NCBI RefSeq assembly: GCF_054482525.1
Contig: NZ_CM137006.1
DNA length: 64,000 nucleotides
Reading direction: 5' to 3' (one strand)
This document shows positions 14,516 through 17,500 of this stretch, one piece after another (the first letter of the stretch is position 1; each line of letters starts with the position of its first letter). Position numbers: made by a program.

Positions 14516-17500
14516 TAGTGTCCTTCGTGGCTGTAGTAAAAGACCGGTAATCCCAGCTTAAGACGTAGCGCCAGTAAACGGGCAAAAAAGCCGAATACCA
14601 GGGTGGAGATAATCACCACATCATGGTTAGAAACATAGTGTTGCAGCGCGATGTACAGCACGGCGGAGGCAAATGAGACACCGGCATACAACTCTTTCTG
14701 GAATACCAGTGGGATGCGTTTACAGAACATATCGCGCAAAACGCCGCCAAATACGCCGGTCGTCACAGCTGCGACAACGGCAATGATCGGGCCGTGTCCC
14801 ATATCCAGCGCAACCTGTGCGCCAATGATAGAAAAGACCACCAGTCCGAGCGCATCGAGCACCAGAAACACTTTGCGCAGGTAAGGCATTACAGGAGCAA
14901 CGATAGTGGTGAGTACTGCGGCGGTAGCGACAATAATCACATATTCCGGGTGTTTGACCCAGCCGAGCGGATAGTGGCCCAGCAGAATATCGCGCACTGA
15001 CCCTCCGCCAATTGCCGTGGCGGTCGCAATAATAATTACGCCAAATGTATCCATGCGCCGTCGTCCGGCCGCCAGCGCCCCCGTCATGGCTTCGGCAGTA
15101 ATGCCAACCAAATACAAAATGTGTAACAGCATGGTTCTCTCCCTAAAAATCTGTCTGGCAGGGTAGCGATTTGTGCGTATTGTCACGATTGAGATTTTTT
15201 AAGGTGAGAGGAAATTGATAACTTGTAGTTATGTGAAATCGCTATTTTCTGTAGCGTAGATGCATTCTTCTGACTTCTTGTCTGAGAAAATGCATAAGAA
15301 AAAATAGGTTAAAATTGAGGGGTGGAAAAGAAAGGTGCAATGTTAAGCCATTGTGTTCACCGCACCTGGACTTTGGCTTACGCATCGGGTATCTCAATCA
15401 ACAAAAAGAGTTTTTAGTTTCTGCTATTTCTTCTCTGTAATTTTTACACTGTTTTCCAACTGCTTGATGCTGACCTGCGGGGTCGGCAACTTAATACAAC
15501 CATTTTGGTGGTTTCAACGAAATGGTCAGATGCAGCTTGATTGCTGGCTTCGCACGCTTGAGTCGCGCGGGCCAGTACCTTTTGAAAATTGCGCCAGTCC
15601 CGATAATCCAGTAACGGTGCCAATTCTCTCGCTGACCAAAATTCTTGCCCTTCAGTGCCATAATGCCGTATTTCTTCAAAAGGTTGATGATGTTCGTTCA
15701 TTGCCCACTCCATGTGATATCGATTGCAAGGAAAGTAAGTCTACAACTGTGTTTATATACAGTTGTGAGTATCTCACGTTCTCACTGCGCTGGGCAAAAA
15801 AACATCGCAAAATCTGGAGCAGGCACGCAAAACAGAATTGAATGTTGCGGGGAGGAAAAATGCCGCTCTGTTTGAGTGGGCGGCATTTGTGAAGGCTGAA
15901 AAAGAAGAATTGGCGTTACGAGTTATTCGATGTTCTGGATCTGCTCGCGCATCTGCTCAATCAACACTTTCAGCTCGATGGCGGAGTTTGTCACTTCGGC
16001 ATTGATAGACTTCGACGCAAGAGTGTTCGACTCGCGGTTGAACTCCTGCATCATAAAGTCCAGACGACGACCAACGGCTTCTTTTTTCTTCAGAATGTTG
16101 TAGGTCTCTTTGACATGCGCTTCGAGGCGGTCCAGTTCTTCGGCTACGTCAATTCGCTGCGCCAGCAGCACCAGTTCCTGCTCCAGACGGTTGTTTTCCA
16201 GTTGCACCTGAGCATCTTCCAGCTTCGCGACCAGACGCTCACGTTGCCATTGCAGGATTTCCGGCATATGGGCGCGGACTTTGACCACTTCGGCGGTGAC
16301 GCCTTCCAGACGCTGCTCGATCAATGCTTTCAGCGCCTGACCTTCGGTTTCGCGCGCGACGATAAAGTCGTCCAGCGTACCATCCAACGCCGCGAGAATT
16401 TCAGCGGCAATCGCGTCGAGATCCTGCTCCTGGGCTGCCATCACGCCCGGCCAGCGTAGAATATCAACCGGGTTGATTTCCCCTTCGTCACTCTGCATTT
16501 TTACCCAGTTCGCGGCAGTTACCAGCTGTTTAGCCAGTTTTTCGTTGAGGATCAGCTCACCTTGCGCGCTAACATCTGGCTCATAACGCAGGGTACATTC
16601 CACTTTACCGCGCGTCAGGCGAGAACGAATACGCTCGCGAACGACAGGTTCAAGGCTACGGAACTGCTCCGGCAGACGAAAGTAAGTTTCCAGATAACGC
16701 TGGTTTACCGAGCGCATTTCCCAGGTTGCGCTCCCCCATTCACCCTTGATTTCACGCCGGGCGTAGGCGGTCATACTGCGGATCATAGACGTTCCTGTTT
16801 ATAAAAGGAGAGGTGGAAGGATTATAGCCATCGATGCCTTGTCAGGATAGGAATAACCGCCGGAAGTCCGTATAATGCGCAGCCACATTTGTTTCAAGCC
16901 GGAGATTTCAATATGCGTCCAGCAGGCCGTAGCAATAATCAGGTGCGTCCCGTTACCCTGACTCGTAACTATACAAAACATGCAGAAGGCTCGGTGCTGG
17001 TCGAATTTGGCGATACCAAAGTGTTGTGTACCGCCTCTATTGAAGAAGGCGTGCCGCGCTTCCTGAAAGGTCAGGGCCAGGGCTGGATCACCGCAGAGTA
17101 CGGCATGCTGCCACGTTCTACCCACACCCGTAACGCGCGTGAAGCGGCGAAAGGTAAGCAGGGTGGACGCACCATGGAAATCCAGCGTCTGATCGCCCGT
17201 GCTCTTCGTGCGGCAGTAGATTTGAAAGCGCTGGGTGAGTTCACCATTACGCTGGACTGCGACGTGCTTCAGGCTGATGGTGGCACGCGTACCGCGTCGA
17301 TTACGGGTGCCTGCGTGGCGCTGGCAGATGCGCTACAGAAGCTGGTGGAAAATGGCAAGCTGAAAACCAACCCGATGAAAAGGATGGTAGCCGCAGTTTC
17401 TGTCGGAATTGTGAACGGCGAAGCGGTTTGCGATCTGGAATACGTTGAAGACTCAGCCGCAGAGACCGACATGAACGTAGTGATGACCGAAGACGGGCGC

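What the first reader, a model, noticed from the sequence alone, without database searches (positions are those of the whole stretch)
15389..15410. Short motif shared between the dinD-remnant region and the waaQ leader
The string atctcaa(tcaa)caaaaagagtt occurs at 15389-15410 and, without the tcaa, at 25308-25325 (cggataatctcaacaaaaagagtt). An 18-bp match at two unrelated loci is unlikely by chance in 64 kb. It could be a shared regulatory or small repeat element, or coincidence.
Basis: seen in the sequence. Interest (0 to 1): 0.25.

Follow-up and report, generated by a model that had tools for sequence, protein, structure and literature searches.

The report
Chance 15-base match, dinD/waaQ
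The shared string is real, but it is a 15-base exact match of the kind a 64-kb window produces several times by chance; each copy is explained by its own neighbourhood (the tail of the dinD gene, the start region of waaQ), so it is not a shared element.

Summary
The window is E. coli, 100% identical to strain PCN033 over the 851 bases compared. The strings exist but the coordinates are slightly off: ATCTCAATCAACAAAAAGAGTT is at 15391-15412 and ATCTCAACAAAAAGAGTT at 25314-25331. The ungapped identity is 15 nt (TCAACAAAAAGAGTT); the "18-bp match" adds only ATC across a 4-nt gap.

This is not unusual. With the repeat-rich adhesin gene removed, the window holds 5 direct and 3 inverted dispersed exact matches of at least 15 nt. 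Markov simulations give 3.5-4.1 direct and 3.0-3.3 inverted.

Site 1 lies 12-33 nt past the dinD stop codon, on the opposite strand. It sits in an accessory dinD cassette absent from 713 of 5426 complete E. coli genomes. Site 2 lies on the coding strand of the waaQ leader, between the JUMPstart/ops element and the GTG start, and includes an AAGAG purine stretch.

There is no flank similarity, no third copy, no second place in any E. coli genome and no significant fold. The motif is no better conserved than its flanks. K-12-type waaQ leaders (954 genomes) lack the 15-mer.

One unexcluded lead remains, at about 4%: the dinD 3'UTR RNA is complementary to the waaQ start region.

Verdict: coincidence, low interest.

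The parts
15391..15412 (+). Site 1: ATCTCAATCAACAAAAAGAGTT, with the exact 15-mer core at 15398-15412. It lies 12-33 nt downstream of the dinD stop codon, written on the strand opposite to dinD and yicG.
   Evidence: stop codon position and direct reading
25314..25331 (+). Site 2: ATCTCAACAAAAAGAGTT, with the exact 15-mer core at 25317-25331. It is in the waaQ 5' leader at positions -22 to -5 relative to the GTG start. It contains the purine stretch AAGAG (25325-25329), 6 nt before the GTG.
15424..15701 (-). dinD remnant. RefSeq annotates two pseudogene fragments in the identical PCN033 sequence: a C-terminal piece at 15424-15492 and a BRO-family N-terminal piece at 15474-15701. The 547-bp internal deletion has its junction at 15492/15493.
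15747..15762 (.). LexA-box-like palindrome CTGTGTTTATATACAG upstream of the dinD remnant. The SOS promoter region is retained.
   Evidence: identification as an SOS box rests on the established CTGT-N8-ACAG consensus
15325..15367 (-). Predicted hairpin (10 bp, 15-nt loop, 15367-15333) followed by UUCUUUUC (15332-15325). This is the likely dinD transcription terminator and would bound a ~100-nt 3'UTR containing site 1.
   Evidence: part of the MFE structure; the fold as a whole is not better than shuffles, z -0.95. It was not found by the consensus scan, whose loop limit is 8.
14515..15132 (-). yicG (trimeric intracellular cation channel family), downstream neighbour of dinD. Site 1 is ~260 bp upstream of its start.
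25248..25286 (+). JUMPstart RNA element (Rfam RF01707, 55.2 bits) containing ops GGCGGTAG at 25275-25282. It ends 27 nt before site 2.
   Evidence: ops consensus from PMC6358824
25336..26394 (+). waaQ (rfaQ), LPS core heptosyltransferase, GTG start.

Best explanation
The two copies are a coincidental 15-nt identity between two unrelated, A/T-rich non-coding stretches of an E. coli chromosome. They are not copies of an element.

Site 2 belongs to the waaQ translation-initiation region. It is the last ~20 nt of the RfaH-dependent leader, between JUMPstart/ops and the GTG start. Its invariant core, CAAAAGAGT, carries the only Shine-Dalgarno-like purines.

Site 1 is the first part of the dinD 3' untranslated region. 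It lies between the stop codon and a terminator-like hairpin, read from the opposite DNA strand. It sits inside an accessory, phage-derived (Bro-N) dinD cassette that many strains lack and that is decaying in this strain.

Shown: coordinates, chance expectation, gene context, opposite orientation relative to local transcription, lack of flank similarity, single place per genome for each context, allele variation. Inferred: that AAGAG contributes to waaQ initiation and that the hairpin terminates dinD.
For: Chance level: 8 dispersed exact matches of >=15 nt were observed, against 6.5-7.4 expected under Markov-3/5 models.

No similarity beyond the 15-mer in +/-150 nt flanks. A lenient Smith-Waterman score of 24 is reached by 4% of random segment pairs.

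No further degenerate copy in the window beyond chance: 3 hits at <=3 mismatches against 2.2 expected.

Site-1 context (121 nt) has exactly one place in 4713 genomes and none in 713, even with sensitive blastn at E<=1. Site-2 context (171 nt) has one place in 5424 genomes.

Orientation differs. The dinD stop codon reads on the - strand at 15424-15426, while waaQ is on the + strand.

The match is not co-conserved:
- K-12-type waaQ leaders (954 genomes at 80-90% identity) read ATCACACAAAAGAGTC, while their site 1 is unchanged apart from an A>G.
- Strain LCP30S3_I5 has an A>T inside the site-1 15-mer but an unchanged site 2.
- dinD-less genomes keep waaQ.

Site-1 motif varies at 2 of 22 columns in six alleles, similar to the surrounding non-coding columns.

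Neither region folds better than shuffles (z -0.95 and +0.68). Rfam finds only JUMPstart, upstream of site 2.

The same 15-mer occurs in at least 120 unrelated, mostly A/T-rich genomes, with flanks that extend the match by <1 nt on average.
Against: A pre-specified 15-mer would be rare, and both copies lie in non-coding DNA only 10 kb apart.

Because the genes are on opposite strands, the dinD 3'UTR RNA is perfectly complementary to the waaQ start region (-19.4 kcal/mol). Substantial pairing survives in K-12 alleles (-14.9) and in LCP30S3_I5 (-17.4). That architecture resembles 3'UTR-derived regulatory RNAs.

I could not scan a whole E. coli genome for the 15-mer.
Confidence: 0.9

Rival explanations
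1. Trans-antisense regulation. The SOS-induced dinD transcript, or a fragment processed from its 3'UTR and ending at the hairpin/U-tract at 15367-15325, base-pairs through AACUCUUUUUGUUGA with positions -19 to -5 of the waaQ leader. This would occlude the AAGAG/GTG start region and lower LPS-core operon expression after DNA damage.
For: There is perfect 15-nt RNA-RNA complementarity at -19.4 kcal/mol. K-12 alleles retain 16 bp with two bulges (-14.9) and LCP30S3_I5 retains -17.4. The seed lies in a 3'UTR bounded by a terminator-like hairpin plus U-tract. The target site covers the translation-initiation region. The LexA box is retained even in the remnant.
Against: A uniform-composition estimate gives ~47 chance 15-nt complementarities between 3'UTRs and start regions per E. 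coli genome, so one instance carries little weight.

Whole-UTR duplex energy against the waaQ start region is matched by 155 of 4500 shuffled start regions.

There is no compensatory change where either side varies. The seed is no better conserved than its flanks.

dinD is absent from 13% of genomes and is a pseudogene here.

No paper in the searchable library reports a dinD-derived sRNA or an sRNA pairing to the waaQ leader.

waaQ translation is described as RfaH-coupled, without a canonical ribosome-binding site (PMC6358824).
Confidence: 0.04
2. A shared DNA-level binding site for a protein (a transcription factor or nucleoid protein) that co-regulates the dinD/yicG and waaQ regions.
For: Both copies are in non-coding, A/T-rich DNA near gene ends or starts.
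Against: There are only two copies and no degenerate relatives beyond chance. By direct reading, the motif has no dyad symmetry. One copy is downstream of a stop codon and ~260 bp from the next gene's start. The other is inside a transcribed leader, 5 nt from the start codon and downstream of the promoter and ops, which are not promoter-proximal operator positions. No promoter-like sites were found around site 1. The 15-mer is lost in K-12-type leaders.
Confidence: 0.02
3. A remnant of a small dispersed repeat or mobile element, or a short patch copied between the two loci (gene conversion, or a template switch during the rearrangements around dinD).
For: The dinD neighbourhood is a rearrangement hot spot. 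It shows an internal deletion, presence/absence of the cassette, an ISKox3 insertion and a ~21-kb integrase island in other strains.
Against: No flank similarity beyond 15 nt. There is a single place per genome for each context across 5426 genomes and no plasmid or other chromosomal copies. No terminal inverted repeats or target duplications were seen around either copy. Site 1 is present unchanged in genomes with intact dinD, so it is unrelated to the deletion.
Confidence: 0.02

Closest known systems
Chance short exact repeats in bacterial genomes (k-mer coincidences)
   Same: The length (15 nt), the number per 64 kb, the A/T-rich composition and the lack of flank similarity all match the null model.
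   Different: Nothing differs. The only unusual point is that both copies fall in non-coding DNA.
JUMPstart/ops leader of RfaH-dependent operons (Rfam RF01707)
   Same: Site 2 lies in the same waaQ leader, 27 nt downstream of the JUMPstart match.
   Different: The motif is outside the JUMPstart model. Site 1 has no JUMPstart/ops match, so the motif is not part of that element.
3'UTR-derived Hfq-dependent sRNAs (e.g. CpxQ, SroC, DapZ, MicL; recalled from general knowledge, not tested here)
   Same: A potential seed in a 3'UTR is followed by a terminator-like hairpin and U-tract, and it is complementary to another mRNA's translation-initiation region.
   Different: There is no evidence of a stable RNA species or Hfq binding. 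The seed is not preferentially conserved and there is no covariation. The parent gene is accessory and a pseudogene here. The complementarity is of a kind expected dozens of times per genome by chance.
RirA, the 73-nt sRNA from the waaQ 5'UTR that titrates RfaH (PMC6358824)
   Same: It derives from the same leader region as site 2.
   Different: According to that paper, RirA's activity depends on the ops site, not on the motif. I could not establish from the text available whether the 73 nt reach 25314-25331.

Membership tests
Dispersed small repeat families (REP/BIME, ERIC/IRU, MITE-like) | Many copies per genome with similarity extending over tens of bases | tested here: not met
   There are two copies in the window and none further at <=3 mismatches beyond chance. 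Each context has one place per genome in 4713 and 5424 E. coli genomes. Flanks are unrelated.
Dispersed small repeat families (REP/BIME, ERIC/IRU, MITE-like) | Palindromic or stem-loop structure, or terminal inverted repeats | tested here: not met
   No inverted repeat includes the motif. Folds are not better than shuffles.
JUMPstart/ops element | Match to the Rfam RF01707 covariance model, including ops GGCGGTAG | tested here: not met
   The single match at 25248-25286 ends 27 nt before site 2, and there is no match near site 1.
Transcription-factor operator shared by two promoters | Recurrence in promoter-proximal positions of the regulated genes; usually dyad or direct-repeat symmetry | tested here: not met
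   Site 1 is just downstream of the dinD stop codon, with no promoter-like site nearby. Site 2 is 5-22 nt before the waaQ start codon, inside the leader. Direct reading shows no symmetry.
3'UTR-derived trans-acting sRNA | Rho-independent terminator (hairpin plus U-tract) at the 3' end | tested here: inconclusive
   A 10-bp hairpin with a 15-nt loop followed by UUCUUUUC appears in the MFE fold. The consensus terminator scan found none, and the overall fold z-score is only -0.95.
3'UTR-derived trans-acting sRNA | Seed more conserved than the rest of the UTR; complementarity to the target maintained or compensated | tested here: not met
   The motif varies at 2 of 22 columns, like its flanks. There is no compensation in K-12-type or LCP30S3_I5 genomes, although partial pairing persists.
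3'UTR-derived trans-acting sRNA | A stable processed RNA species that binds Hfq/ProQ and regulates the target | not testable with these tools
   This needs Northern, Term-seq or RIL-seq data and reporter assays. No report was found in the paper library.
Translation-initiation region (site 2 only) | Purine-rich Shine-Dalgarno-like stretch 5-9 nt upstream of the annotated start codon, retained across alleles | tested here: met
   AAGAG lies at 25325-25329, 6 nt before the GTG at 25336. CAAAAGAGT is kept in all three leader alleles aligned. Function was not tested, and PMC6358824 states that RfaH-dependent operons lack a canonical ribosome-binding site.

The most novel reading that the evidence does not exclude
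The match is functional at the RNA level. dinD is on the - strand and waaQ on the +, so the SOS-inducible dinD mRNA carries, 12 nt after its stop codon, a 15-nt stretch perfectly antisense to the waaQ leader at -19 to -5. A 3'UTR-derived RNA ending at the hairpin at 15367-15325 could therefore repress the LPS-core operon during the SOS response in strains with this waaQ leader allele.
Probability: 0.04. Interest if true: 0.55.

Novelty: not a real feature. Interest (0 to 1): 0.05.

Why it matters
As a coincidence it matters only as a calibration point. In a 64-kb bacterial window, exact matches of 15-16 nt between unrelated loci are expected several times, so they should not be flagged without flank similarity, extra copies or co-conservation. 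If the low-probability antisense reading were true, it would link the SOS response to LPS core synthesis through a 3'UTR-derived RNA. That link has not been described and would be testable with simple reporter assays.

Tried and rejected
1. Cross-species scan of the 15-mer in genome contigs. It shows that the 15-mer is a common chance string but says nothing about orthologous conservation.

2. RNA duplexfold of the whole dinD 3'UTR against the whole waaQ start region. Without intramolecular competition it gives unrealistically long duplexes. The observed -39.6 kcal/mol is matched by 3.4% of shuffled targets, so it is uninformative beyond 'not exceptional'.

3. Fetching the waaQ leader of strain LCP30S3_I5 by distance from dinD failed, because a ~21-kb phage-like island lies between them. 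This was solved with a 50-kb fetch.

4. Consensus promoter/terminator scans around both sites found nothing relevant.

5. Rfam found only JUMPstart.

6. Paper searches for a dinD-derived sRNA or an sRNA targeting the waaQ leader found nothing.

7. Small ORFs overlapping site 1 on the + strand (31-41 aa) were considered and dropped. They are purely mechanical, with no start codon placed after the AAGAG of site 1 and no promoter.

Full report
**Observation.** Reading the two places and locating the strings exactly shows ATCTCAATCAACAAAAAGAGTT at 15391-15412 and ATCTCAACAAAAAGAGTT at 25314-25331. Both copies are on the + strand. The ungapped identity is the 15-mer TCAACAAAAAGAGTT (15398-15412 and 25317-25331). 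The '18-bp match' is this 15-mer plus ATC across a 4-nt gap, created by the local TCAATCAA duplication at site 1. BLAST between the two +/-150-nt contexts returns only the 15-mer, and the next best matches are 9-mers.

**Is it more than chance?** No. The tool's expectation of 0.02 applies to a 15-mer chosen in advance, whereas this one was found by looking for any repeated string.
- Listing all maximal exact repeats shows that the long ones all belong to a 234-bp tandem-repeat region of one gene at 55.7-56.8 kb.
- Outside that gene there are 5 direct and 3 inverted dispersed matches of >=15 nt, three of them 16 nt.
- Simulated sequences of the same length and Markov order 1, 3 or 5 give 1.8, 3.5 or 4.1 direct and 1.7, 3.0 or 3.3 inverted matches. 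Between 82% and 100% of simulations contain at least one direct match.
- With lenient gap costs the best local alignment of the two contexts scores 24, a value reached by 4% of random segment pairs, of which the window holds ~17,000.
- Allowing 3 mismatches finds one further site for the 15-mer (3 hits against 2.2 expected) and none for the 18-mer.

**What is at site 1.** The window matches E. coli PCN033 at 100% over the 851 bases compared.
- The genes here are ligB (+), yicG (-, 14515-15132), a dinD remnant (-) and yicC (-).
- Reading the - strand gives ...QLENSVKITEKK-stop, with the stop codon at 15424-15426. This agrees with the annotated dinD end in PCN033, AF5 and a K-12-like strain.
- Site 1 is therefore 12-33 nt downstream of the dinD stop codon, written on the strand opposite to dinD and yicG.
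- Further down the - strand, the MFE fold contains a 10-bp hairpin (15367-15333, 15-nt loop) followed by UUCUUUUC. This is plausibly the dinD terminator. The consensus scan has a loop limit of 8 and did not report it, and the whole region does not fold better than shuffles (z -0.95).
- dinD here carries a 547-bp internal deletion (junction 15492/15493), leaving a Bro-N fragment. The same contiguous junction is present in 14 of 5426 complete genomes.
- The LexA-box-like CTGTGTTTATATACAG is retained at 15747-15762.
- The whole dinD cassette, including site 1, is accessory. The 121-nt context of site 1 has exactly one place in 4713 genomes and none in 713. In a dinD-less genome, yicG and yicC are 251 bp apart and homology to the window stops near 15306.

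**What is at site 2.** The only Rfam match in the window is JUMPstart (RF01707, 55.2 bits) at 25248-25286, containing ops GGCGGTAG at 25275-25282.
- waaQ (rfaQ) starts with GTG at 25336.
- Site 2 occupies -22 to -5 of this leader and includes AAGAG (25325-25329), 6 nt before the GTG.
- A review of LPS regulation describes this leader: it holds ops and JUMPstart, it is the source of the 73-nt RirA RNA, and RfaH couples transcription to translation in operons said to lack a canonical ribosome-binding site (PMC6358824).
- The 171-nt context has one place in 5424 genomes and falls into two allele classes: >=99% identity in 4456 genomes and 80-90% in 954.
- In the K-12-type class the motif reads ATCACACAAAAGAGTC. 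The 15-mer is gone and only CAAAAGAGT is common to all three leader alleles aligned, while JUMPstart is invariant.

**Are the two copies tied together?** I found no sign of it.
- They have opposite orientation relative to the local genes.
- Their flanks are unrelated.
- Neither context has a second place in any E. coli genome or plasmid, apart from one plasmid copy of the waaQ leader itself.
- Six site-1 alleles vary at 2 of the 22 motif columns, about the same as the neighbouring non-coding columns.
- Where one side changes, the other does not follow. K-12-type genomes have a much-altered site 2 and a nearly unchanged site 1. Strain LCP30S3_I5 has A>T inside the site-1 15-mer and an unchanged site 2. 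The 713 genomes without the site-1 context still carry the waaQ leader, which is present in 5424 genomes.
- Neither region has a significant fold.
- The same 15-mer occurs in at least 120 unrelated genomes, with flanks that extend the match by less than one base on average.

**Best explanation (confidence 0.9).** This is a coincidental identity between two A/T-rich non-coding stretches, each accounted for locally. Site 2 is the translation-initiation end of the RfaH-dependent waaQ leader. Site 1 is the start of the dinD 3'UTR inside a decaying accessory cassette.

**The one lead worth recording.** Because dinD is on the - strand and waaQ on the + strand, a direct DNA repeat means RNA complementarity.
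- The dinD 3'UTR contains AACUCUUUUUGUUGA, perfectly antisense to waaQ -19 to -5 (-19.4 kcal/mol). K-12 alleles keep 16 bp with two bulges (-14.9) and LCP30S3_I5 keeps -17.4.
- Together with the terminator-like hairpin, this resembles a 3'UTR-derived regulatory RNA.
- Several things count against it:
  - A uniform estimate gives ~47 such chance 3'UTR/start-region complementarities per genome.
  - Whole-UTR duplex energy is matched by 3.4% of shuffled targets.
  - There is no seed conservation or covariation.
  - dinD is dispensable and broken here.
  - Nothing was found in the literature.
- I give it about 4%.
- A shared protein-binding site and a repeat/mobile-element remnant get about 2% each, for the reasons listed under the rival explanations.

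**Comparison with known things.** The finding fits ordinary k-mer coincidence.
- It is not part of JUMPstart/ops.
- It is not a REP/ERIC/MITE-type repeat: there are no extra copies and no palindrome.
- It is not placed like an operator.

**Novelty and score.** As a shared element it is not a real feature. Interest is 0.05.

Noticed in passing
window 53025-58277 (-), repeats at 55.7-56.8 kb: A 1750-aa trimeric autotransporter adhesin (ESPR signal, 7 YadA_head, 14 YadA_stalk, YadA_anchor). Its 234-bp tandem repeats account for nearly all long exact repeats in the window (up to 92 nt).
   Followed up: partly
window 15424-15701 (-), junction 15492/15493: dinD carries a 547-bp internal deletion. 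The identical junction is found in only 14 of 5426 complete E. coli genomes, all annotated as BRO/DnaD pseudogene fragments. The LexA-box-like site (15747-15762) is intact, so the remnant may still be SOS-transcribed.
   Followed up: partly
window ~15307-15920; L006, L007, L133: The yicC-yicG interval is a variable hot spot. The dinD cassette is absent in 713 of 5426 genomes. An ISKox3 transposase lies next to dinD in GSH8M-2. In LCP30S3_I5 a ~21-kb island bearing a tyrosine integrase, with phage-like content, is inserted between dinD and yicC.
   Followed up: partly
window 15325-15367 (-): A 10-bp hairpin with a 15-nt loop, followed by UUCUUUUC, lies downstream of dinD. It is a likely intrinsic terminator that the consensus scan misses because of its loop limit. 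A C/T polymorphism at 15361 turns a G-U pair into A-U, which keeps the stem.
   Followed up: partly
window 15136-15149 / 15196-15209 and 15260-15295: Two things lie just upstream of the yicG start. One is a 14-nt inverted repeat, 86% complementary with a 46-nt spacer. The other is an imperfect palindrome bounded by ATGCAT (atgcattcttctgac...gtctgagaaaatgcat), seen by eye only. Both lie in sequence that is also present in dinD-less genomes, so they could be yicG leader or operator structures.
   Followed up: no
window 25088-25160 versus L004, L005: The waaA-waaQ intergenic region upstream of ~25185 is essentially unalignable between the window-type and K-12-type alleles. From ~25190 through JUMPstart it is nearly invariant. 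The allele boundary thus lies inside the intergenic region, presumably reflecting the different waa core-type loci.
   Followed up: no
window 5151-5168, 4057-4072, 51247-51262: Perfect palindromes of 16-18 nt centred on ACCGGT (TGCGCAACCGGTTGCGCA, CCAGAACCGGTTCTGG, ACACCACCGGTGGTGT) appeared in the repeat listing. Their context was not examined.
   Followed up: no
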